A DNA stretch of 64,000 nucleotides, from the NCBI GenBank assembly GCA_045543555.1, contig JAZQMQ010000020.1, forward strand, positions 2,911 through 66,910, in the 5' to 3' direction. Positions within the stretch are counted from its first letter, which is position 1. Each line of letters opens with the position of its first letter. The notes beneath the pieces are model-generated. The model had not been told where the DNA came from. It saw only the letters and a program-made list of their open reading frames with translations, and searched no databases. Shown here in pieces: positions 14,937-27,403 of this stretch. This stretch comes from Eubacteriales bacterium. Its GTDB lineage: Bacteria > Bacillota > Clostridia > Oscillospirales > CAG-272. Made by a program: the position numbers and the translations under genes.

Positions 14937-16202
14937 TCAGAAAAGAATTATGATGAACTGCGTAACAAGTACAACGGCAACCAATGCTATCGGATAGGTA
15001 GCCGCGTAAGCCGCAGCAACGTCCTCTGTACCCGAAACACCGATAAGTGTACCAAGCGCAGGAGTACTCGTCATACCGCCTGTAAGCGATCCGAGGTTGT
15101 TAAGCAGGGAGAGCTTGAGAACGTATTTGGAAAACAAGAAGCCGACGATCATAGGAATGATAGTCATTATAATTCCGTAAACGAAGTACATCGGGTCAAA
15201 GTTTGCAATAAACTCAGCGCCACCAGGAATTCCCGCGCCAACGAGGAAGAACACAAGACCAAGCTCGCGGAAGAGCTTGAGTGTGGAATCCTTAGGCATA
15301 ATGCTTACCTTACCGATTCTGGTAATATGTCCGAGAATAAGGCTTACAAGCAGACATCCGCCTGTGGTGGTAAGCGAGAAGCAGGTACCGTCAAGACCCT
15401 TTGCGGAAAGGGGTATTTTGATCTGTCCAATGAACGTACCGAGTATTGCAGCAAGAGAAAATACAGCAATTCCCATGTGGTCAAGCTCAAAGAGCTTGCC
15501 TGCAAAGGTCTTCTTTTTGCCTTCCTCTTCCTTAACAACAAGCTTTGCTCTTTCAGCAGCCATATCAGCCTTAAGAACCTTAGGCATGAGCTGAACGAAA
15601 AGCACTACGCCGATAACGCCGAAAATGTAAGCAATTCCGTGTCCGACAGACACAAGTGACTGATATTCGGGAGCAACTGTTGCCTTTGCCGCGGAGAAAG
15701 CGGGAGTTGATGTGAGTGCTCCCGAAAGGAGACCTACGATCATTGCAACGAAGCCGTCCTGAGTTTTAATGGAGGAGCCGTATCCCATAACCTCGCCAAG
15801 GTAGATGCATCCAACTGCCGCAAGTCCGCCTGCAAGGATAACGATCGCACCGAGAAGAACGTAGGACTTGAAGTTACGCTTGAAATTTCCAAAGAATTTA
15901 GGCCCTGCGATAAAGCCTACCGAGGTTACAAAGAGGATAAGTCCGAGGCTTTCGATAATAGAAAGTCCTGCTTCAAAATTATATGGAGTTTTTGAAGCGA
16001 TAAAGTTAAGCCCGGTAACCTCGTTCATCTCAAAGCAGAGAGCTCCTGCCAAAAGTGCTACAACAAATACACCCGCATCGCCGAGGGAAATTCCCTTGAC
16101 AGTGATTCTTCCAAGTGCATAGCCTGCGAGAAGCACTGCAAACACAACCGAAAGCAGTGTTGAAATATTAGAAAGCGTTATAACGCCGCCGAATAATTCC
16201 AT
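14937..16202 (-). CDS. AAE-family (YidE/YbjL/AspT/SucE-type) transporter, short form without TrkA-C domains
   Basis: 421 aa. Internally duplicated halves with LSGALTSTPAFSAAK and LTGGMTSTPALGTLI. The N-terminus LLAGYALGRITVKGISLGDAG is typical of the family. Confidence 0.8.
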   Translation of the reverse strand: MELFGGVITLSNISTLLSVVFAVLLAGYALGRITVKGISLGDAGVFVVALLAGALCFEMNEVTGLNFIASKTPYNFEAGLSIIESLGLILFVTSVGFIAGPKFFGNFKRNFKSYVLLGAIVILAGGLAAVGCIYLGEVMGYGSSIKTQDGFVAMIVGLLSGALTSTPAFSAAKATVAPEYQSLVSVGHGIAYIFGVIGVVLFVQLMPKVLKADMAAERAKLVVKEEEGKKKTFAGKLFELDHMGIAVFSLAAILGTFIGQIKIPLSAKGLDGTCFSLTTTGGCLLVSLILGHITRIGKVSIMPKDSTLKLFRELGLVFFLVGAGIPGGAEFIANFDPMYFVYGIIMTIIPMIVGFLFSKYVLKLSLLNNLGSLTGGMTSTPALGTLIGVSGTEDVAAAYAATYPIALVAVVLVTQFIIILF

Positions 16203-16205
16203 TTT

Positions 16206-17819
16206 TTACACCTTCCTTGCATAGTCAGGAAGAAGTCTGGGGGATACCTCGTCGGTAACGATGCCCGCTTCTGCCATTTCCTTCTTAAAGCTGTTAACGT
16301 GAGAAAGGGTGAGCTTTTCAGGAGTTGCAGTCTCTGCCGCAACCTTTGCCGCATTTACGCCCGCGTTACGTCCGAATACGATGATGTCGAGGAGGGAGTT
16401 ACCCATAAGTCTGTTCTCACCGTGAATTCCTCCGACTGCCTCACCTGCAACGAAGAGGTTAGGCACCTCGGACATTCCGTTCTCGCTTATCTTGATACCG
16501 CCGTTCTGGTAGTGAAGTGTGGGGTAGATAAGAATGGGCTGCTTTCTCATATCAATGCCGTACTTGAGATACATACGCATCATTGCGGGGATTCTCTTCT
16601 CAATCGTTCCCTCGCCGTGAAGCATCTCGATCATGGGAGAGTCGAGCCATATTCCCTGTCCGCCGTTGAAGGTGTCAACGCCCTTACCCTTTCTGCACTC
16701 GCGAATAACACCAGATGCGCAAACGTCACGGGTCTCAAGGGAGTACATGAAGGGCTCACCGTCACAGTTTACGAGCTGTGCTCCGATGGAACGAACCTTC
16801 TCGGTTACGAGTGCGCCGAATATCTGCGAGGGATATGCTGCACCCGTGGGGTGATACTGAAGTGTGTAAGCATAAAGGAGAGGTGCGCCCGCACGATAAG
16901 CCATAACAAGACCGTCAGCGGTTGCTCCGTAGTGGTTGGAGGTGGGGAAGCCCTGATAGTGCATTCTGCCTGCGCCGCCCGTTGCGATGATAACGGTCTT
17001 TGCTCTTGCTATAAGGATCTCCTTGGTCTCCATATTCATAAGGACAGCACCTGCGGCATTGCCCTTTTCGTCCTTGATTATCTCGATAGCCGAGGTAAAA
17101 TCAACGACGTTGATGCCTCTGTTCTGAACCTCGTCACGAAGAACTCTCATGATCTCGGCACCGGAGTAGTCCTTACAAGCGTGCATTCTCTTTCTGGAAG
17201 TGCCGCCGCCGTGGGTTGTTACCATAGTACCGTCGGCTTCCTTGTCGAACATAACGCCGAGATCGTTGAGCCACTTAATACAAACGGGGGCATCGTTTAC
17301 GAGCTTATAAACAAGCTCGGGAACGTTCTTGAAGTGTCCGCCGCCCATAACGTCGAGATAGTGCTGTGCGGGGGAGTCATTGGGCTTATCAGCCGCCTGA
17401 ATTCCACCCTCTGCCATCATGGTATTAGCATCGCCGTGGCGAAGCTTGGTAACTATCATAACGTTTGCGCCGCTTTCCTGTGCCATAATTGCTGCAGCAG
17501 ATCCTGCTCCGCCGCCGCCTATAATCAGCACATCAACATCGTAATCGATCTTGTTAAGATCTATCTTATCGGGATCGATTCTGGGATTAGCCTGAAGGAT
17601 TCCTGCAAGCTCAAGGGGCACCTTTTCACCCTTGTTAGGACCTATTTTGAGAGTGTCGAACTGATCGACGATATGGTCGGGGTGGTTTTCAAGAAGGACC
17701 TGATCCTTTTCCTCAGCAGTCATTCTGCGAGGATGAATACCGTTAAGTGCGTTCTTGACACGCTCTTCACGTGTAGCTTCGACCTTTTTGATCGATTCAA
17801 GCATTTCATTCGTATACAT
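16206..17819 (-). CDS. FrdA/SdhA-family flavoprotein (soluble fumarate-reductase-like)
   Basis: 537 aa. FAD motif VLIIGGGGAGSAAA. Substrate-site motifs LQYHPTG, TEKVRS, ETRD, PTLHYQNGG and GIHGENRLMGNSLLD. ANTMMAEGG replaces SHTVAAEGG, so there is no covalent-FAD His. Confidence 0.8.
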   Translation of the reverse strand: MYTNEMLESIKKVEATREERVKNALNGIHPRRMTAEEKDQVLLENHPDHIVDQFDTLKIGPNKGEKVPLELAGILQANPRIDPDKIDLNKIDYDVDVLIIGGGGAGSAAAIMAQESGANVMIVTKLRHGDANTMMAEGGIQAADKPNDSPAQHYLDVMGGGHFKNVPELVYKLVNDAPVCIKWLNDLGVMFDKEADGTMVTTHGGGTSRKRMHACKDYSGAEIMRVLRDEVQNRGINVVDFTSAIEIIKDEKGNAAGAVLMNMETKEILIARAKTVIIATGGAGRMHYQGFPTSNHYGATADGLVMAYRAGAPLLYAYTLQYHPTGAAYPSQIFGALVTEKVRSIGAQLVNCDGEPFMYSLETRDVCASGVIRECRKGKGVDTFNGGQGIWLDSPMIEMLHGEGTIEKRIPAMMRMYLKYGIDMRKQPILIYPTLHYQNGGIKISENGMSEVPNLFVAGEAVGGIHGENRLMGNSLLDIIVFGRNAGVNAAKVAAETATPEKLTLSHVNSFKKEMAEAGIVTDEVSPRLLPDYARKV

Positions 17820-17833
17820 CTTACCCGTCCTCC

Positions 17834-18508
17834 TTATTTCTCAAAATCTCTGTTGTTATACATTTCCTTAAGCTCCTCAGCGGTCTTGCTCATAATATCG
17901 CGAAGAGCCTCCTCGGTTGCACCGTTTTCGATTTCAGCAACTCTCTCGAGGAGGTGCTGAGTTTCGGGAGCGAGATACTTACCGGTGAGACGGCGGGACA
18001 GAAGTCCTACCTGACCGTGAGTGATACCCGCAGGGCATCTGGAGGAGCAAACACCGCACATTACGCAGTCAAAGGACTCCTCTGCGCACTTTTCGTACTC
18101 GCCTCTCTGAGCGTAAGCAATGTACTGCATAACGTTAAGACCCTGAGTACAAGCCTTGGTGCAGGCGTTACAGCCTACGCAAGCGTAAATTTCGGGGTAA
18201 AGCTGCATCATTATCTGTTCGGTGGGCTTTACCTTCTCGATATCGTAGGGCTGCTTAATAAGGGGGAAGAAAGGAAGGGTCGCAATGTACATATTGTCTT
18301 CAACCTTTGTCTGACATGCAAGACATGTCTTCAGCTCTCGTTCACCCTTTATACGATAAATGGTCGCACAAGCACCGCAGAAGCCACAACGGCATCCTAC
18401 TCCGCGTACGAGCTGATAGCCCGCATACTCCATTGCTCCCATAATTGTAAGATTAGACGGCACCTCGTACTTTTTGCCGTAAAGATATATGTTTACCATA
18501 TTTTCCAT
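17834..18508 (-). CDS. FrdB/SdhB-like iron-sulfur protein
   Basis: 224 aa. N-terminal CRCGFCGAC...C (2Fe-2S-like), then CVGCNACTKAC and CVMCGVCSSRCP cluster motifs. Confidence 0.75.
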   Translation of the reverse strand: MENMVNIYLYGKKYEVPSNLTIMGAMEYAGYQLVRGVGCRCGFCGACATIYRIKGERELKTCLACQTKVEDNMYIATLPFFPLIKQPYDIEKVKPTEQIMMQLYPEIYACVGCNACTKACTQGLNVMQYIAYAQRGEYEKCAEESFDCVMCGVCSSRCPAGITHGQVGLLSRRLTGKYLAPETQHLLERVAEIENGATEEALRDIMSKTAEELKEMYNNRDFEK

Positions 18509-18522
18509 AGTATGTTACCTCA

Positions 18523-19347
18523 TCAATATTCATCAGGCAATGCGCCAAGCTTATCGTAACGGAATACCGGTCCGTCCTTGCAGACGTATTTGCTTCCAAT
18601 GTTACAGCGTCCACATTTACCGATACCGCACTTCATACGAAGCTCCATTGTAGTGTACACCTGCTCCTCAGTAAAGCCCAGCTCCTTCAGAGCCGCAAGC
18701 GTAAATTTGATCATAATGGGAGGACCGCAAACAAGTACGGTCTTGCTTATATCGGGCTCGAGCTCCTTTACGTAGTTGGGAACGAAGCCGACGTGTCCGT
18801 CCCAACCCTCCTGCTCACGGTCGATGGTAAGATGGACGTTAACGCCCGCCTCGGTCATCCACTCCTCAATTATTTCCTTGTAATCAACAAGGTCATCCTT
18901 GGAGCGTGAGCCGTAAACGATGTCTATGCTTCCGTAATTTTCTCTGTAGTGACGGCAGTAATTTATAACCGAGCGAAGAGGCGCAAGTCCGATTCCGCCC
19001 GCAATAAAGAGCAGGTCCTTGCCCTTGAGCTCCGTTTCAACGGGGAAGGAATTTCCGTAAGGGCCTCTGACGGTTACGTACTGACCTACCTCCATAGCGT
19101 GAAGCCACTCGGTAAGACATCCGCACTTCTTGATGCTGAATTCCATATACTCGGTATTCGTGGGAGATGAGGTTATGGAAAACATAGCCTCGCCCACACC
19201 GGGAATGGAAAGCATCGCACACTGACCGGGCATATGGTCAAAGGGCTTGACTCCGTCGGGAGTTACTACCCTGAAGGTCTTTACGTCGGGGGTATCGATA
19301 CGTATATCGGTTACTACTCCGACCACTGGGATAAGTGTTTCGTTCAT
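18523..19347 (-). CDS. flxA: FNR-like NAD(P)H:flavin oxidoreductase with C-terminal 2Fe-2S (FlxA / HydG / AsrB type)
   Basis: 274 aa. GGIGLAPL nucleotide-binding motif and CGIGKCGRC cluster motif. Confidence 0.75.
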   Translation of the reverse strand: MNETLIPVVGVVTDIRIDTPDVKTFRVVTPDGVKPFDHMPGQCAMLSIPGVGEAMFSITSSPTNTEYMEFSIKKCGCLTEWLHAMEVGQYVTVRGPYGNSFPVETELKGKDLLFIAGGIGLAPLRSVINYCRHYRENYGSIDIVYGSRSKDDLVDYKEIIEEWMTEAGVNVHLTIDREQEGWDGHVGFVPNYVKELEPDISKTVLVCGPPIMIKFTLAALKELGFTEEQVYTTMELRMKCGIGKCGRCNIGSKYVCKDGPVFRYDKLGALPDEY

Positions 19348-20372
19348 TACTTTTCCTCCTTAAAGGCCTTCATTACCTTGACGATATTCATGGAGATGGG
19401 GCACTTGCTCAGACATCTGCCGCAACCCACACAGCTGAAGATACCGTCGTTGTTTGCGGGATAGTAAACGAGCTTGTGCATAAATCTCTGCCTGAATCTT
19501 TCAAGCTGAGATACACGGGGATTTCCGTGCGCCATTTTGGTGAAATCGGAATACATGCAGGAATCCCAGCATCTGAATCTCTTGATGCCGCTTCCCGTGT
19601 CGAAATCCTTTATGTCATAGCACTGGCAGGTGGGACAAACGAATGTACAGGTACCGCAACCGATACAAGACTCCGAAAGACCTGCCCATTTGTCGGAATC
19701 AAAGTACTCCATCATCTTTTCGGGAGTAAAGCCGTCGGTGGTAAGGGACGCAAGCGGAAGCTCAGCCTTTGCGCTGTATATCCCGGTCTTGATGTCCCAT
19801 ACGGGCTCGTCATCGGATTCGGTAAGAGAGGTCCCGATGCTCTCGATGAGAGCCTTTCCCTTCTCTGTTACCGCCTCAAGATAAACCTCGTCTCCGTTTA
19901 CCCAAGCGGAAACGTCGCCCTCAGGCTCTGCACAGTTGATGCCGAAGGTCTGACAGAAGCAGGTCTCCCGCATCATATCGGGGTTACAAGCGACTGCAAT
20001 GGTGGTGCAATGCTCACGTCTGCTCTTGTAATAGGTATCGACGGGCTCGGACAAAAATACTCTGTCGAGAATTTCGAAGGACTTGACGTCGCAGGCACGG
20101 AGTCCGAATACCGTAAAATCCTCGGTCTCGCTTCTTACGTCGATAATTTCGATCTTCTTGCCCTCACGCTTGAAATCAACAAGATTTTCGGTCTGGGGGA
20201 AGAAGAAATCCTTAGGAGTTCTGACCTTGTCGCATTTTTCGTTTGCGTCAGCCTTCCACTCCTTGAAGGGCTTATGGGTGTCGCTTACGTCGGCACCGTC
20301 GGGATCGGGCACATAGAGACGCTGAAGCGAAGCGATAGCGGAGAAAAGCTCGTTTAAAGTTGTTTTAAGCAT
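19347..20372 (-). CDS. flxB: 4Fe-4S dicluster protein (FlxB / HydB / AsrA type)
   Basis: Start taken at ATG 20372 (MLKTTLNELF), preceded by GAGGAGG. CIGCGTCTFVCPTCQC and CVGCGRCLSKCP motifs. TAATG overlap with flxA. Confidence 0.7.
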   Translation of the reverse strand: MLKTTLNELFSAIASLQRLYVPDPDGADVSDTHKPFKEWKADANEKCDKVRTPKDFFFPQTENLVDFKREGKKIEIIDVRSETEDFTVFGLRACDVKSFEILDRVFLSEPVDTYYKSRREHCTTIAVACNPDMMRETCFCQTFGINCAEPEGDVSAWVNGDEVYLEAVTEKGKALIESIGTSLTESDDEPVWDIKTGIYSAKAELPLASLTTDGFTPEKMMEYFDSDKWAGLSESCIGCGTCTFVCPTCQCYDIKDFDTGSGIKRFRCWDSCMYSDFTKMAHGNPRVSQLERFRQRFMHKLVYYPANNDGIFSCVGCGRCLSKCPISMNIVKVMKAFKEEK

Positions 20373-21354
20373 TTTCCTTTCCTCCTCTTTCGTGAACGAT
20401 ACTCGGCTCGGCGTCGCCGTAGGTGTAGTTGGTAAGGGGAGAACGGCTCTCCATATCCTCACCCGCCTGATACTCGCCGTAAAGCTCGTTTATATCCTTG
20501 ATAAACTTACGGTTGAGCAGGTGAAGGGGAATGTGCTGAGGACATACTCTGCTGCACTCACCGCAGTCGGTACAGCGTCCCGCTACGTGGAACGCTCTTA
20601 TGATATGGAACATATTTTCCTCAAAGGAGGTAGCCGCCGCCTTCTGTGCCACACCCGATGCATCGTTGTCGAATACACATTTTTCGCAGGTGCAGGCGGG
20701 ACAAGCGTTACGGCAGGCGTTACATCTGATGCAACGGGAAAGCTCACCTCTCCAGAATTCGTATCTTTCCTCGGGAGTCATATTTTCGAGGGCGGCAACC
20801 TGATCAAAGCGGTCACAGTCGTCCACCTTATCTCCCTCCTCGCAGAGAAGCTCGTCGCATATGGGATGCTTCTTGCTCTTGCAGGATGCACATTTTTCAA
20901 GAAGTGCCTCGTAAATGGGAAGCTCCCTTGCAGTATCACCAAGACCGTAAACGGTAAGCACACCGTCACGCTCGGTAACGTTTTTAATGGTCGCAACGCC
21001 GCTCTTGGCTCTGACGGCATCAATATCCGCCTTGCCGAAGCACTCGATACCGATAGCGTATACGTTTTCTCTTATAATTCTGTGCTCCTTGAGAAGCTGT
21101 GCGAAGCTGTAGCTGTCGCAGGGCTTGAGGAATACCAGCACCTTTCCTTCTTTTCTGCTCTCTTTTACGAGATACTTGGAAAGGTTTGCTCCGCAGAAAG
21201 CGGAATAGACGAAATCCGCCTCAATTTCCTCCTTGGTCTCAAACACCGCGGGGGTAATATCGTAAACAAAATCGCCCTTTTTCCAACCGAGCACACGGCT
21301 TACCGCACCGCTTGAAAGAAGCTCGATCGCCTTATTTTTCATCATTTCTTGCAT
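20365..21354 (-). CDS. flxC: iron-sulfur protein (FlxC-type)
   Basis: 329 aa. CIRCNACRNACPACTC and CTDCGECSRVCP motifs. Overlaps both neighbours. Confidence 0.65.
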   Translation of the reverse strand: MQEMMKNKAIELLSSGAVSRVLGWKKGDFVYDITPAVFETKEEIEADFVYSAFCGANLSKYLVKESRKEGKVLVFLKPCDSYSFAQLLKEHRIIRENVYAIGIECFGKADIDAVRAKSGVATIKNVTERDGVLTVYGLGDTARELPIYEALLEKCASCKSKKHPICDELLCEEGDKVDDCDRFDQVAALENMTPEERYEFWRGELSRCIRCNACRNACPACTCEKCVFDNDASGVAQKAAATSFEENMFHIIRAFHVAGRCTDCGECSRVCPQHIPLHLLNRKFIKDINELYGEYQAGEDMESRSPLTNYTYGDAEPSIVHERGGKENA

Positions 21355-21779
21355 CGGAGGTCCTCCAATCTGCGATTCTCACCGAGGTCGGTGACTGTCT
21401 TTACGAAGCTGTTCATGGTTTCCGCAAACTTCTGACCCTCAGCGGCAGATACCCATTCAACTCTCGTTCTGTCTCTTTCGATACCGAGGTAGTCGAGCAT
21501 CGAGAACAGAAGGGTCATACGGCGCCTTGCATAGTAGTTACCCGTAGTATAGTGACAGTCGCCGGGGTGACAACCGCAAATTATAACGCCGTCCGCACCT
21601 CTCTGGAAGGCACGGAGGATGAACATGGGATTTACTCTGCATGAACAGGGCACTCTGATTATCTTAACGTCGGCAGGATACTGAAGACGGTTGGTTCCCG
21701 CAAGGTCAGCGCCCGCGTAAGAGCACCAGTTACAGCAGAAGGCTACTATTTTGGGCTTGAATTCATTATTTACTTGCAT
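21342..21779 (-). CDS. flxD: MvhD-family (methyl-viologen-reducing hydrogenase delta subunit-like) protein, FlxD
   Basis: 145 aa. KIVAFCCNWCSY...VPCSCRV...GVIICGCHPGDCHY is the MvhD signature. Confidence 0.85.
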   Translation of the reverse strand: MQVNNEFKPKIVAFCCNWCSYAGADLAGTNRLQYPADVKIIRVPCSCRVNPMFILRAFQRGADGVIICGCHPGDCHYTTGNYYARRRMTLLFSMLDYLGIERDRTRVEWVSAAEGQKFAETMNSFVKTVTDLGENRRLEDLRCKK

Positions 21780-23761
21780 ATTGCGTCAACCTCCGCCATT
21801 ATCTGTGCATTTGTGAAGCCCTTAAGGTCCATAGCGCCCGAAGGACAAGCAACGGTACAAGCACCGCAGCCCTGACATACCGCTTCGTTAACAGAAGCAA
21901 CTCTGCGAATGAGGGTGGTACGGTTGGGACCTCTGAATTCCTTATCGGAATAGGTGATTGCGCCGTAAGGACATACCTTTTCACAGGAGGAGCATCCGTT
22001 ACAGAGCATCTCGTCGGAATGAGCAACACAGGGGTTGCAGGTAAGCTTATTCTTATTAAGAAGACCGATAACCTTTGCCGCACAAGCGGAGGCCTGAGAA
22101 ACGGTCTCGGGAATATCCTTGGGGCCCTGACATACGCCCGAGAGGAAGATGCCCGCCGTAGGGCTCTCAACGGGACGGAGCTTGGGGTGTGCCTCGGTGA
22201 AGAAATCGTTTGTATCCATACTTGCGGTAAGCTTGGTAGCAAGAGGTCTTGCGGAGCTATCGGGCTCGATAGCGGTTGCGAGAACAACCATATCCGCGCT
22301 TATCTTCAGCTGCTTGCCCTCGATAAGATCGGATGCACGTACCGTGAGAGTACCGTCGGGCTCCGGAAGAACCTTTCCGACCATTCCTTTAACGTAATGA
22401 ACACCGTATTCCTCAACCGCACGGCGATAGAACTCGTCAAAATTCTTACCGGGCGTACGAACGTCGATATAGAACACGTACACCTCGGTGTCGGGATATT
22501 TTTCCCTTATGAGCATAGCGTGCTTTGCGGTGTACATACAGCATATCTTGGAGCAATAGCTCTTGCCCTTGTCGTCGGAGCATCTTGAGCCCACGCACTG
22601 TACGAACACGATGGTGTGCGGGTGGGTCTTATCGGAGGGACGGAGAAGCGTTCCGCCGTTAGGGCCTGCGGCGTTCATAAGACGCTCAAGCTCAAGGGAG
22701 GTAACTACGTCCTTGCTCTGATTGTATGCAAACTCATCGTACTTGTCGAGCTTGATGGGATTGAAGCCGGTTGCAACGACGATGGCACCGTACTGCTCGT
22801 TTATATAGCTGTCTGTCTGCTTGTAATCGATAGCGCCAACCGTACAAACCTTTGCGCAAAGGCCGCACTTACCGCTTTTCAGCATAGTGCAATAATCTGC
22901 ATCGATGGTTGCAACCTTCGGTACTGCCTGAGCGAAGGGTATATATACTGCGCGACGGTTATCAAGACCGAGATTGAAGGCATTCGGAACCTTCTTCTGA
23001 GGACATTTTTCTGTACAAAGACCGCAGCCCGTACACTTATTTTCGTCAACGTATCTCGCCTTGCGCTTGATGGTAACGTTGAAATTACCGACGAAGCCCT
23101 TTACGTCCTCGACCTCGGAATAGGAAAGAATCCTTATCTTTTCATGTTGAGCACAATCGACCATTTTAGGCGTAAGGATACAAGCGGCACAGTCGAGGGT
23201 CGGGAATGTCTTGTCTATCTGCGCCATCTTTCCTCCGATGGTCGCCTCCTTCTCGACTATGTCGACCTCAAAGCCCGCATCGGCAATATCAAGTGCGGTC
23301 TGGATTCCCGCAATACCGCCTCCGATAACGAGGGCACGCTTGACAACGGGGCTCTCGCCTGCGGTGAGGGGTGCGTTAAGATGTACCTTTGCTATAGCTG
23401 CACGTCCGAGGATAATTGCCTTTTCGGTCGCCTCCTCGACGTTCTTATGTATCCACGATACCTGCTCTCTGATGTTTGCTATCTCGACCATATAGGGATT
23501 AAGTCCCGCCGCCGTCGCAGTTTTGCGGAAGGTGGCCTCGTGCATACGGGGTGAGCAGGAGCATACAACCACTCCCGTAAGAGCGTTATCCTTTATTGCG
23601 TCCTTAATGAGATTCTGTCCTGCCTCAGAGCACATATACTGATATTCGGTGGAGATAACTACACCGGGCTCGTGCGAAAGAGCCTCCGCTACCGCCTTAA
23701 CGTCCACGGTCGCAGCAATATTCGTACCGCAATGGCAGACAAATACTCCAATTCTCTGCAT
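21770..23761 (-). CDS. hdrA: heterodisulfide reductase subunit A-like flavoprotein
   Basis: 663 aa. N-terminus MQRIGVFVCHCGTNIA, FAD motif ALVIGGGIAGIQTALDIA, several 4Fe-4S motifs (CTGCGLCTEKCP, CNGCSSCEKVCP, CQGCGACTVACP). Confidence 0.9.
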   Translation of the reverse strand: MQRIGVFVCHCGTNIAATVDVKAVAEALSHEPGVVISTEYQYMCSEAGQNLIKDAIKDNALTGVVVCSCSPRMHEATFRKTATAAGLNPYMVEIANIREQVSWIHKNVEEATEKAIILGRAAIAKVHLNAPLTAGESPVVKRALVIGGGIAGIQTALDIADAGFEVDIVEKEATIGGKMAQIDKTFPTLDCAACILTPKMVDCAQHEKIRILSYSEVEDVKGFVGNFNVTIKRKARYVDENKCTGCGLCTEKCPQKKVPNAFNLGLDNRRAVYIPFAQAVPKVATIDADYCTMLKSGKCGLCAKVCTVGAIDYKQTDSYINEQYGAIVVATGFNPIKLDKYDEFAYNQSKDVVTSLELERLMNAAGPNGGTLLRPSDKTHPHTIVFVQCVGSRCSDDKGKSYCSKICCMYTAKHAMLIREKYPDTEVYVFYIDVRTPGKNFDEFYRRAVEEYGVHYVKGMVGKVLPEPDGTLTVRASDLIEGKQLKISADMVVLATAIEPDSSARPLATKLTASMDTNDFFTEAHPKLRPVESPTAGIFLSGVCQGPKDIPETVSQASACAAKVIGLLNKNKLTCNPCVAHSDEMLCNGCSSCEKVCPYGAITYSDKEFRGPNRTTLIRRVASVNEAVCQGCGACTVACPSGAMDLKGFTNAQIMAEVDAICK

Positions 23762-23781: not shown

Positions 23782-24159
23782 TTATTTTGTATATTTACGG
23801 AAAGCCGTTACGATAGCCTGCTGAGGCATATCGGGATCGAGAAGCTCGGGGATATCGTCAGGGGTAAGACGGTTACATCCCTGAGGACGGATGGCCATAA
23901 GCCTTACCGCCTCGATAAGCTTTGCGGGCTCGACACCTCTGGGGCATCGCTCTACACAAGCAAAGCAGGTGAGACATTTGTATACCGATTCCGAGTTCAG
24001 CAGGGCGTCAATATCGCCGTTTTCGACCATATATACGAACTGATGGGGATGATACTCCATCTCGCCGTAGGAGGGGCAGGTGCCGGAGCACTTACCGCAT
24101 TTCATACATTTTCTCGGGTTTACACCGCTTACTCGGATTATTTCTTCCTTCTTGTTCAT
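23782..24159 (-). CDS. hdrC: heterodisulfide reductase subunit C-like 4Fe-4S protein
   Basis: 125 aa. CMKCGKCSGTCP and CLTCFACVERCP. Confidence 0.8.
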   Translation of the reverse strand: MNKKEEIIRVSGVNPRKCMKCGKCSGTCPSYGEMEYHPHQFVYMVENGDIDALLNSESVYKCLTCFACVERCPRGVEPAKLIEAVRLMAIRPQGCNRLTPDDIPELLDPDMPQQAIVTAFRKYTK

Positions 24160-24950
24160 TTGGCGACATCCTCCTTAACTCCGAGAGCCTCCGCAAGAAG
24201 CTCGGTGAAGTACTTTATCTCCGCTCCGCCATCTCTGCACTGCTCGAGATTGTAAAGGCAGAGGGGACAAGCGGTGATAACAAGGTCTGCACCGAAGCCA
24301 TTTGCGCTGTTAAGCACGTCGGCGCTCTTTGAGAGTGCGGATGCCTTATCCTCTAGGGCAACGTAGCCACCGCAGCACTCGTTACGGTAGGGGTAGATAA
24401 CGGGCTCACCGCCGATGGCACGGATAAGGTCCTCAATTATCTTGGGGTCCTCAACATCGTCCATCGCCATGACCTTTCCGGGACGGAGAAGGAGACAGCC
24501 GTAGTATGCGGCGATCTTCTTGCCCGTAAAGGGGTTTACCACCTTTTCCTTAATCTTATCAAAGCCCACTCTGTCACGGAGAAGCTCAAGGAAATGAATA
24601 ACCTGAGTCTTACCCTCGTACTCACCCTCGGGCTTTTCATACATACGGACCTTCAGCTTGAAGTTTTCATCGTTCAAAAGATCGTTTCTCACTCTCTTCA
24701 GCACGTTGTGACAGGCGGAGCAAAGGGTCACAAGGTCTTCACCTCTCTTTTCCGCCGCATAAAGTGCTCTCACGGAGGAAAGCTTGTTTGCTATCTCGTT
24801 ACTTGCGGCATTATACGTACCTCCGCAGCACTGCCAGGTGTCAAGCTCGTTCAAGCCTACACCGAGGACCTCTGCTACGGCTCTTGCATATCTGTCAAGC
24901 TCCTTAGCCTTGGTCTTTAAGGTACAGCCGGGATAATAACTGTAAGTCAT
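24156..24950 (-). CDS. hdrB: heterodisulfide reductase subunit B-like protein (two CCG domains)
   Basis: 264 aa. YYPGC...WQCCGG...CSAC and YYGC...NECCGG...CPLC. Confidence 0.85.
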   Translation of the reverse strand: MTYSYYPGCTLKTKAKELDRYARAVAEVLGVGLNELDTWQCCGGTYNAASNEIANKLSSVRALYAAEKRGEDLVTLCSACHNVLKRVRNDLLNDENFKLKVRMYEKPEGEYEGKTQVIHFLELLRDRVGFDKIKEKVVNPFTGKKIAAYYGCLLLRPGKVMAMDDVEDPKIIEDLIRAIGGEPVIYPYRNECCGGYVALEDKASALSKSADVLNSANGFGADLVITACPLCLYNLEQCRDGGAEIKYFTELLAEALGVKEDVAK

Positions 24951-24968: not shown

Positions 24969-26345
24969 TTATACCATCTGCTCGGGGTGGAAGACCTCGT
25001 CGAAGCGCTCCTCGGTCAAAAATCCGAGAGCAACGCAGGCCTCTTTAAGCGAAATATTGTCCTTATACGCCTTCTTTGCGGTCTTTGCCGCATTTTCGTA
25101 GCCGATGTAGGGGTTAAGGGCGGTCACGAGCATAAGGGAATTCTTGAGATTGTGATCCATCTTCTCACGGTTTGCCTTAATGCCCACCGCACAGTTATTG
25201 TTGAAGGAAACTATGCTGTCCGCAAGGAGACGTACCGACTGAAGGAAATTATAAATACATACGGGCATGAACACGTTAAGCTCAAAGTTGCCCTGAGAAG
25301 CCGCCATGCCGACCGCAACGTCGTTACCCATTACCTGAACCGCAACCATCGTAACCGCCTCGCACTGAGTGGGGTTTACCTTACCGGGCATAATGGAGGA
25401 GCCGGGCTCGTTTTCGGGAATGAATATCTCACCGAGGCCGTCACGGGGACCCGAAGCAAGCCATCTTACGTCGTTTGCGATCTTCATCATATCGCAGGCA
25501 AGAGCCTTAAGTGCTCCGTGTGCAAAAACAAGCTCGTCCTTGGAGGTGAGAGCGTGAAATTTATTGCCTGCGGTAACGAAAGCCTTACCGGTTATCTCGG
25601 ATACCGCCTCTGCGACCGCAGTATCGAAGCCCTTGGGAGCGTTAAGACCCGTACCGACGGCAGTGCCGCCGAGAGCAAGCTCGTGAAGGGGCTTGAGGGA
25701 CATAGCTATAAGCTCTCTGTCTCTTTCAAGCGAGCTTCTCCAACCGCTGATCTCCTGAGAGAACTTTATGGGGGTTGCATCCTGAAGATGAGTACGTCCG
25801 CACTTTACGGCGTCCTCGTTTTCGCTTTCAAGACGCTTGAAGGTGTCGATAAGCAGGTCAACTGCGGGAAGAAGCTTATCCTCTATTCCGATCACCGCCG
25901 CAATGTGCATTGCGGTGGGGAAGGTATCGTTTGATGACTGAGACATATTGATGTCGTCGTTGGGGTGGAGAAGCTTTTTGCCCGCAAGCTCGTTGCCTCT
26001 GTTGGCGATGACCTCGTTTGCGTTCATGTTGGACTGAGTGCCGCTTCCCGTCTGCCATACGACGAGGGGGAAATGATCGTTTAACTGACCCGAAATGACC
26101 TCGTCACATGCTGAGCAGATAGCACGAAGCTTTTCCTCGGTCATCTTCTCGGGGCGAAGGGTGGAGTTTGCCATTGCCGCCGCCTTTTTGAGAACACCGA
26201 AGGCGTGAGTGATCTCACGGGGCATTATCTCGTTGCCTACGCCTATGCGGAAGTTTTCTGAGCTTCTCTGTGTCTGAGCCGCCCAATATTTATCTGCGGG
26301 GACTTTTACCTCGCCCATCGAATCGTGTTCAATACGAAATTCCAT
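24969..26345 (-). CDS. fumC: class II fumarate hydratase
   Basis: 458 aa. GSSIMPGKVNPTQCEA signature. Confidence 0.95.
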   Translation of the reverse strand: MEFRIEHDSMGEVKVPADKYWAAQTQRSSENFRIGVGNEIMPREITHAFGVLKKAAAMANSTLRPEKMTEEKLRAICSACDEVISGQLNDHFPLVVWQTGSGTQSNMNANEVIANRGNELAGKKLLHPNDDINMSQSSNDTFPTAMHIAAVIGIEDKLLPAVDLLIDTFKRLESENEDAVKCGRTHLQDATPIKFSQEISGWRSSLERDRELIAMSLKPLHELALGGTAVGTGLNAPKGFDTAVAEAVSEITGKAFVTAGNKFHALTSKDELVFAHGALKALACDMMKIANDVRWLASGPRDGLGEIFIPENEPGSSIMPGKVNPTQCEAVTMVAVQVMGNDVAVGMAASQGNFELNVFMPVCIYNFLQSVRLLADSIVSFNNNCAVGIKANREKMDHNLKNSLMLVTALNPYIGYENAAKTAKKAYKDNISLKEACVALGFLTEERFDEVFHPEQMV

Positions 26346-26357
26346 CTTGCCTCTCCT

Positions 26358-27302
26358 TCATATGTTGAGCTGATTTATTACTTCTTTGAGCTTGTCTGCG
26401 CTGTAACGGAGCTTCGCGATCTCCTCTTCCGTCAAGGGAGAGATGATCTTTCCGTTTACTCCGCCCTTTCCAACAATGGAAAGAATGCTGAGACAAACGT
26501 CGCTGATGCCGTATTCACCGTTCATCATAGTGGACACCGAAAGTGCAGTATCGATGCCTCTGAAGATGCTGGAGCAAATATTGTTAACCGTGAGAGCTAT
26601 AGCGTAGTAGGTAGCTCCCTTTGCGGTGATAATTGTTGAACCGGACTTTCTTACGTACTCCTCGATCTCATCGCGGTTAAAGCCGCAACCGTCGATCTGA
26701 AGGCCCTTGGACTGAGCGTAAGCGTCGATAGGTGTGCCCGATATGGTTGCGATAGACCACGGCACGAAGGAAGTATCACCGTGCTCACCGAAAACGTTTG
26801 CATGAACGTTCTGCATACTAATGCTGAAGTTTTCAGCAAGACGAGAACGAAGACGTGCTGTATCAAGGAGCGCACCACTTCCGATTATCTGCTTTTCGGG
26901 AAGACCCGAGCACTTACAGAAAACATACGTAAGTATATCAACGGGGTTACTTACGACGATATACACCGCGTTGGGAGCAACACTCGTTATTTTCGGAATG
27001 ATGCTCTTGGTGATGTTGACGTTTGTCTGTGCAAGGTCAAGCCGGGACTGTCCCGGACGTCTTGCGATACCGGAGGTAAGCACCACGATATCAGAATCTC
27101 TTGCATCCTCGTAGTCACCTGCGTGAATGTTGATGGGCGAAATAAACGGCGCGCCCTGTCTGATATCCATTGCTTCACCAAACGCCTTCTGCTCGTTGAT
27201 ATCGATAAGAACCACCTCTGCAGCATTACCGCTGACCGCAAGAGTAAACGCGATAGTCGCACCTACAGATCCGGCTCCTATGATAGACACTTTTCTTCCC
27301 AT
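26358..27302 (-). CDS. mdh: LDH-family 2-hydroxyacid dehydrogenase with Arg at the Q102 position (predicted malate dehydrogenase)
   Basis: 314 aa. VSIIGAGSVGAT. The specificity loop GIARRPGQSRLDL aligns as RRPGQSR against LDH QKPGETR and MDH RKPGMSR. Catalytic GEHGDT. Confidence 0.8.
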   Translation of the reverse strand: MGRKVSIIGAGSVGATIAFTLAVSGNAAEVVLIDINEQKAFGEAMDIRQGAPFISPINIHAGDYEDARDSDIVVLTSGIARRPGQSRLDLAQTNVNITKSIIPKITSVAPNAVYIVVSNPVDILTYVFCKCSGLPEKQIIGSGALLDTARLRSRLAENFSISMQNVHANVFGEHGDTSFVPWSIATISGTPIDAYAQSKGLQIDGCGFNRDEIEEYVRKSGSTIITAKGATYYAIALTVNNICSSIFRGIDTALSVSTMMNGEYGISDVCLSILSIVGKGGVNGKIISPLTEEEIAKLRYSADKLKEVINQLNI

Positions 27303-27365: not shown

Positions 27366-27394
27366 ATTATATCACCTATATATTGTTTTTGCAA
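27366..27394 (-). promoter_or_regulatory. sigma-A promoter of the mdh-fumC-hdr-flx-frd operon
   Basis: Minus strand: TTGCAA (27394-27389), 17 nt, TGaTATAAT (-10 at 27371-27366). Confidence 0.6.
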
Positions 27395-27403
27395 ATGCAA
27401 AAA
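27386..27403. promoter_or_regulatory. 18-nt perfect palindrome overlapping the -35 (operator candidate)
   Basis: TTTTTGCA-AA-TGCAAAAA. Confidence 0.45.

What the first reader, a model, noticed from the sequence alone, without database searches (positions are those of the whole stretch)
16206..17819. FrdA-like flavoprotein lacks the covalent-FAD histidine, has an N-terminal extension of about 95 aa and a short C-terminus
Seen:
- Where E. coli FrdA has RSHTVAAEGG (His44, 8-alpha-N3-histidyl FAD), this protein has DANTMMAEGG.
- The fumarate-site residues are all alignable: QYHPTG, TE..R, RD proton-donor region, HY..GG, HGxNRL.
- The Rossmann motif starts only at about residue 97, after an extension (MYTNEMLESIKKVEATREERVKNALNGIHPRRMTAEEKDQVLLENHPDH...) that I could not assign to any domain.
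- The chain ends about 50 aa after HGENRLMGNSLLD, much earlier than in membrane-bound FrdA/SdhA.

Established: loss of the covalent flavin link abolishes succinate oxidation but not fumarate reduction in FrdA variants. This fits a unidirectional reductase.

Inference: the extension could be the docking element to the Fe-S/Hdr partners.
Basis: partly seen in the sequence, partly recalled or inferred. Interest (0 to 1): 0.55.

Follow-up and report, generated by a model that had tools for sequence, protein, structure and literature searches.

The report
Hdr/Flx-linked soluble fumarate reductase flavoprotein
This gene encodes the flavin subunit of a soluble, probably one-way fumarate reductase that gut Clostridia encode next to an NADH-dehydrogenase/heterodisulfide-reductase complex; the arrangement has been proposed, but never shown biochemically, to make succinate while also reducing ferredoxin.

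Summary
ORF 16206-17819 (minus strand, 537 aa) is an FrdA/SdhA-fold flavoprotein. It has Asn132 where complex II has the FAD-linking His. It has a real, conserved 95-aa N-terminal extension. It lacks the C-terminal domain. All six fumarate-site residues are kept.

It is the last catalytic gene of one operon: Mdh, FumC, HdrB-C-A, FlxD-C-B-A, FrdB-like, FrdA-like, AAE transporter. The Hdr-Flx-FrdBA order is the same in all 80 related genome loci examined, as far as each contig reaches. At least 597 species genomes carry a relative.

A 'succinate operon' described with the same gene series was reported in Pseudoclostridium thermosuccinogenes (PMC7282089, citing a 2019 preprint) and proposed to be an electron-bifurcating fumarate reductase. 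So this is a new member of a proposed but uncharacterised kind.

The extension has no sequence or fold relative. It models confidently as an arm (two helices, a hairpin, a helix). It also occurs in relatives with other partners (NuoF-like, Hdr without Flx) or with no Fe-S partner. It therefore marks the flavoprotein subfamily and is not an Hdr-specific dock. One natural FrdB-FrdA fusion places it next to FrdB.

The parts
16206..17819 (-). FrdA-like flavoprotein, 537 aa, non-covalent-FAD type. This is the catalytic subunit.
   Evidence: Pfam FAD_binding_2 96-476. Best NCBIfam hit is TfrA, 339 bits, below the cut-off of 718. Foldseek top hit is E. coli FrdA 1kf6_A, E 8e-31.
17535..17819 (-). N-terminal extension, residues 1-95: helix 4-25, helix 35-45, HPD motif, beta-hairpin 54-68 with a GPNKGE loop, helix 69-75.
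   Evidence: AF2 block-mean pLDDT is 81-98 in the full-length model. The same secondary structure appears when it is modelled alone, with pTM 0.42. No Pfam, PDB-sequence or Foldseek relative was found. H46, P47, G60 and G64 are invariant in alignment A3; in the wider set H46 is not absolute.
17424..17426 (-). Codon for Asn132, at the position of the 8-alpha-N3-histidyl-FAD His of complex II.
   Evidence: Invariant N in 79/79.
16209..16349 (-). Short C-terminal tail, residues 491-537: helix 506-517 and an SPxLLPxY motif. It stands where the helical and C-terminal domains of SdhA/FrdA/TfrA would be.
   Evidence: No PF02910 hit.
17834..18508 (-). FrdB-like Fe-S subunit, 224 aa. From its Cys motifs it should bind one [2Fe-2S] (C39, C44, C47, C65) and two complete CxxCxxCxxxC(P) motifs, i.e. 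two [4Fe-4S] and no [3Fe-4S]. It has no CCG domain.
   Evidence: Pfam Fer2_4 and Fer4 families. Aligns to TfrB positions 18-149 of 488. Twelve Cys are invariant.
18523..19347 (-). FlxA-like NAD(P)H/FAD-binding subunit with a [2Fe-2S] site.
   Evidence: Pfam NAD_binding_1, FAD_binding_6 and DHODB_Fe-S_bind.
19347..20462 (-). FlxB-like Fe-S subunit. The likely true start is the ATG at 20372.
   Evidence: Pfam Fer4_22. Related to ShyB/AsrA.
20365..21354 (-). FlxC-like Fe-S subunit.
   Evidence: Pfam Fer4_8 and Fer4_17.
21342..21779 (-). FlxD/MvhD-like subunit.
   Evidence: Pfam FlpD, E 2e-56.
21770..23761 (-). HdrA, the presumed bifurcating FAD/Fe-S subunit.
   Evidence: Full-length match to solved HdrA chains 8rvu and 5odc, E about 1e-203.
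23782..24159 (-). HdrC-like subunit with two [4Fe-4S] motifs.
   Evidence: Pfam Fer4_8 and Fer4_17.
24156..24950 (-). HdrB with two complete CCG motifs. It is equally similar to the SdhE 'anchor' of type-E complex II.
   Evidence: NCBIfam: SdhE 147 bits, HdrB 137 bits. Matches solved HdrB chains at E 1e-31.
24969..26345 (-). Class II fumarate hydratase (FumC).
   Evidence: TIGR00979, 719 bits, above its cut-off.
26358..27302 (-). LDH-family dehydrogenase with Arg at the position of LDH Gln102, so probably a malate dehydrogenase.
   Evidence: the sequence reads GIARRPGQSRLDL.
27366..27395 (-). Promoter-like site upstream of the operon.
   Evidence: 10 of 12 consensus matches with a TG extension. 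This is a consensus match only.
14937..16202 (-). AAE-family (AspT/YidE/SucE-type) transporter, a putative succinate exporter.
   Evidence: Pfam Asp-Al_Ex. Found downstream of FrdA in 52/80 loci.

Best explanation
The ORF encodes the catalytic flavoprotein of a soluble two-subunit fumarate reductase module (FrdB-like plus FrdA-like). The module has no membrane anchor.

Its FAD is bound non-covalently, because Asn replaces the linking His. The flavin potential should therefore be low, and the enzyme should run only from fumarate to succinate.

Proposed electron path. FlxA oxidises NADH. FlxBCD pass the electrons to the FAD of HdrA. There the pair is split. One electron goes uphill to ferredoxin. 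The other goes downhill through HdrC, then the CCG clusters of HdrB, then the [4Fe-4S] and [2Fe-2S] clusters of FrdB, to the FrdA FAD and on to fumarate. The net reaction would be 2 NADH + Fd(ox) + fumarate -> 2 NAD+ + Fd(red) + succinate.

Mdh and FumC, encoded upstream, make the fumarate from oxaloacetate. The AAE transporter exports succinate.

The N-terminal extension is an arm that belongs to this flavoprotein subfamily. It probably packs on the core, standing in for the lost C-terminal domain, and lies beside FrdB.

What is shown: gene content, conserved synteny, conserved residues and the absence of the His. What is inferred: the electron path, the bifurcation, the direction and the role of the extension.
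For: - Asn at the flavinylation position.
- Catalytic residues invariant.
- C-terminal domain absent.
- Operon composition.
- HdrA matches solved bifurcating HdrA chains at about 1e-203. HdrB has both CCG motifs.
- HdrBCA-FlxDCBA-FrdBA synteny is unbroken in 80 loci wherever the contig reaches. Counts out of 80: FrdB 79, FlxA 73, HdrA 59, FumC 41, Mdh 42, AAE 52.
- At least 597 species genomes encode a relative of this flavoprotein by tblastn; only the best 80 were examined for context.
- FrdB has no CCG domain, whereas TfrB is an FrdB-like part fused to an HdrB-like part. So the single HdrB is the obvious bridge.
- The published 'succinate operon' of P. thermosuccinogenes is described with the same gene series. 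It was induced about 4-fold under CO2 limitation and was proposed to link fumarate reduction to ferredoxin reduction (PMC7282089).
- Covalent-bond biochemistry: PMC5773532.
- Extension: real start; confident model; FrdB-FrdA fusion P0122.
Against: - There is no biochemical evidence anywhere for this enzyme, and bifurcation is only proposed.
- The known job of HdrB is disulfide reduction, so a thiol carrier cannot be excluded.
- The same FrdBA module occurs with a NuoF-like partner or alone. It therefore does not need Hdr, and coupling to ferredoxin is not a property of the module itself.
- Orthology to the P. thermosuccinogenes proteins rests on the published description of its gene series, not on a sequence comparison.
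- Four lineages that carry the extension have no Fe-S neighbour.
Confidence: 0.62

Rival explanations
1. There are two separate enzymes joined by a soluble thiol/disulfide carrier, as in methanogens, where TfrAB oxidises CoM-SH and CoB-SH and Hdr re-reduces the heterodisulfide. Flx-Hdr would reduce a disulfide, and FrdBA would use the thiol to reduce fumarate.
For: The flavoprotein's best family match is TfrA. HdrB keeps both complete CCG motifs, which form the disulfide-reducing site in solved Hdr structures.
Against: FrdB has no CCG domain, which is the thiol-oxidising part of TfrB. No gene for a carrier or for cofactor synthesis is conserved in the operon. The tight, invariant co-linearity of Hdr, Flx and FrdBA suggests one complex.
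Confidence: 0.12
2. The complex is a plain, non-bifurcating NADH:fumarate (or ferredoxin:fumarate) oxidoreductase, in which the Flx/Hdr subunits only wire electrons to FrdBA.
For: A 47%-identical FrdBA pair sits in a three-gene unit with overlapping start and stop codons together with a NuoF-like NADH-binding subunit and no Hdr. NADH to fumarate is strongly exergonic on its own.
Against: HdrA is full length and about 1e-203 to bifurcating HdrA chains. Seven extra redox subunits are conserved in every locus, which is hard to justify for a simple wire. Physiological data in P. thermosuccinogenes were interpreted as ferredoxin coupling.
Confidence: 0.18
3. The flavoprotein acts on another substrate. 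It could be an L-aspartate oxidase (NadB-like), given the aspartate aminotransferase and the AspT-family transporter nearby, or another enoate reductase such as the urocanate or cinnamate reductases.
For: NadB models score almost as well as Sdh/Frd models (268 bits). NadB also lacks covalent FAD. AAT type Ic and an AAE transporter are nearby.
Against: The score is below the NadB cut-off of 452. An Fe-S partner and Hdr are not NadB partners. FumC and Mdh are conserved upstream in about half of all loci, which is most of those long enough to show them, whereas AAT is present in only 2/80. All residues that bind the two carboxylates are invariant.
Confidence: 0.05

Closest known systems
'Succinate operon' fumarate reductase of Pseudoclostridium thermosuccinogenes (Koendjbiharie and van Kranenburg, 2019 preprint; PMC7282089)
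   Same: The published description gives the same gene series: fumarate hydratase, seven Flx-Hdr genes, two fumarate reductase genes, then a putative succinate transporter. The same coupling to ferredoxin was proposed for it.
   Different: It is from a different organism; the window is closest to Acutalibacteraceae gut MAGs. Sequence orthology was not tested here. I could not read the preprint, so I do not know whether the missing His, the extension or the short C-terminus were described there.
Thiol:fumarate reductase TfrAB of methanogens
   Same: It is the best-scoring family for the flavoprotein. It is soluble and has an Fe-S subunit predicted to bind [2Fe-2S] plus two [4Fe-4S]. It is functionally tied to Hdr chemistry.
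   Different: The score of 339 bits is far below the cut-off of 718. TfrA has the C-terminal domain and no N-terminal extension. The closest TfrA-like proteins (P0188, P0200, P0207) have His at the flavinylation position. TfrB carries the CCG domain itself, whereas here that domain is a separate HdrB.
Membrane-bound complex II flavoproteins (E. coli FrdA/SdhA)
   Same: Same fold (Foldseek E 8e-31) and the same fumarate-site residues.
   Different: Complex II flavoproteins have covalent FAD, helical and C-terminal domains, a [3Fe-4S] cluster in the B subunit and a membrane anchor. This protein has none of these.
Soluble fumarate reductases (Shewanella Fcc3, yeast Osm1/Frd1) and L-aspartate oxidase
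   Same: Non-covalent FAD. Fcc3 and Osm1 work only in the reductive direction. Fcc3 and Osm1 also end soon after the HGxNRL motif.
   Different: These enzymes have no Fe-S partner. Their electrons come from haems or free flavin. None has an extension like this one. The scores are below the family cut-offs.
FlxABCD-HdrABC of Desulfovibrio vulgaris (Ramos et al. 2015)
   Same: The same seven-subunit NADH dehydrogenase/heterodisulfide reductase set.
   Different: There the proposed high-potential acceptor is the DsrC disulfide. Here a fumarate reductase module is encoded in the same operon.

Membership tests
Complex II flavoprotein (SdhA/FrdA) | FAD_binding_2 fold with the dicarboxylate-site residues His, Thr-Glu, Arg (proton donor), His and Arg | tested here: met
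Complex II flavoprotein (SdhA/FrdA) | 8-alpha-N3-histidyl FAD (the His in R-S-H-T/S) | tested here: not met
   N132 in pairwise and multiple alignments; N in 79/79.
Complex II flavoprotein (SdhA/FrdA) | C-terminal helical and C-terminal domains (Pfam Succ_DH_flav_C) | tested here: not met
   No PF02910 hit. The chain ends 67 aa after R470.
Complex II flavoprotein (SdhA/FrdA) | Partner SdhB/FrdB with a [3Fe-4S] cluster, plus a membrane anchor | tested here: not met
   The second Cys motif of FrdB is a complete CxxCxxCxxxCP. No anchor gene is present in the operon.
TfrA (thiol:fumarate reductase subunit A) | NCBIfam NF004900 score at or above 718, with full-length profile coverage | tested here: not met
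   339 bits, covering profile positions 6-414 of 546.
TfrA (thiol:fumarate reductase subunit A) | Partner TfrB with a fused CCG (HdrB-like) domain | tested here: not met
   FrdB is 224 aa and has no CCG domain. The CCG domains are in a separate HdrB.
L-aspartate oxidase NadB | NCBIfam TIGR00551 score at or above 452 | tested here: not met
   268 bits.
Flavocytochrome c-type soluble fumarate reductase | TIGR01813 score at or above 285, with a haem domain or a stand-alone enzyme | tested here: not met
   207 bits. No haem motif or domain. An Fe-S partner is present instead.
Flx-Hdr-linked fumarate reductase ('succinate operon', P. thermosuccinogenes) | Operon of fumarate hydratase, FlxABCD-HdrABC (seven genes), two FR genes and a putative transporter | tested here: met
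   Searches compared with the description in PMC7282089. Conserved in 80 loci.
Flx-Hdr-linked fumarate reductase ('succinate operon', P. thermosuccinogenes) | Sequence orthology of the FR subunits to CDQ83_RS03320/25 | not tested
Flx-Hdr-linked fumarate reductase ('succinate operon', P. thermosuccinogenes) | NADH-dependent fumarate reduction coupled to ferredoxin reduction | not testable with these tools
   This needs enzyme assays. It has also not been shown for the reference organism.
FlxABCD-HdrABC | HdrA (FAD plus Fe-S), HdrB (two CCG), HdrC, an MvhD-like FlxD, FlxA with NAD/FAD binding, and FlxB/FlxC Fe-S subunits | tested here: met

The most novel reading that the evidence does not exclude
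The eleven gene products (FlxABCD, HdrABC, FrdBA, with Mdh and FumC feeding them) would form a cytoplasmic, electron-bifurcating NADH:fumarate/ferredoxin oxidoreductase. In it, the non-cubane clusters of HdrB would hand electrons straight to an Fe-S/flavoprotein module instead of reducing a disulfide. That would be the first Hdr with a non-thiol terminal substrate and a major, overlooked route of succinate formation and energy conservation in gut Clostridia. The previously undescribed N-terminal arm of the flavoprotein would replace the complex II C-terminal domain and help build the interface with FrdB.
Probability: 0.45. Interest if true: 0.75.

Novelty: new member of a known kind. Interest (0 to 1): 0.5.

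Why it matters
If the proposed coupling is real, fumarate reduction in many gut and rumen Clostridia conserves energy by flavin-based bifurcation, making reduced ferredoxin for Rnf or hydrogenases, and not by a quinone-linked respiratory chain. The lineages involved include Acutalibacteraceae, Ruminococcus, Christensenellaceae and Lachnospiraceae; at least 597 species genomes encode a relative, and all 80 loci examined carry the linked operon.

That would change how succinate production, hydrogen balance and redox budgets are modelled in these ecosystems. It would also give Hdr a new class of acceptor.

The module is a natural experiment on what covalent flavin, the [3Fe-4S] cluster and the C-terminal domain contribute to complex II. 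All three are missing here, while the catalytic site is untouched.

Tried and rejected
- Annotation artefact for the extension: rejected. There is a Shine-Dalgarno sequence, the gap to the FrdB stop codon is mostly 8-16 nt in 78 related loci, and the sequence is conserved from residue 1.
- A known domain in residues 1-95: none found. Pfam gave nothing at E up to 10. A profile search against PDB sequences gave a best E of 0.086, which is noise. Foldseek of the isolated model gave a best E of 3.8 and TM 0.20.
- An alternative flavin-linking His in the extension (H46 of the HPD motif): unlikely. H46 is replaced or absent in some relatives (P0167, P0179, P0136). Distances could not be measured because model coordinates are not exposed.
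- The extension as a strict marker of the FrdB partner: rejected. Among nine distant lineages that carry the extension, five have FrdB (one of them as a fusion) and four have no recognisable Fe-S neighbour.
- A Rex operator upstream of the operon: no convincing site. Five matches with 3 mismatches were found in the window against 4 expected, and none lies in the promoter region.
- A paired FrdB+FrdA structure prediction was not possible.
- The 2019 preprint could not be read.
- Rfam: no RNA family in the window.
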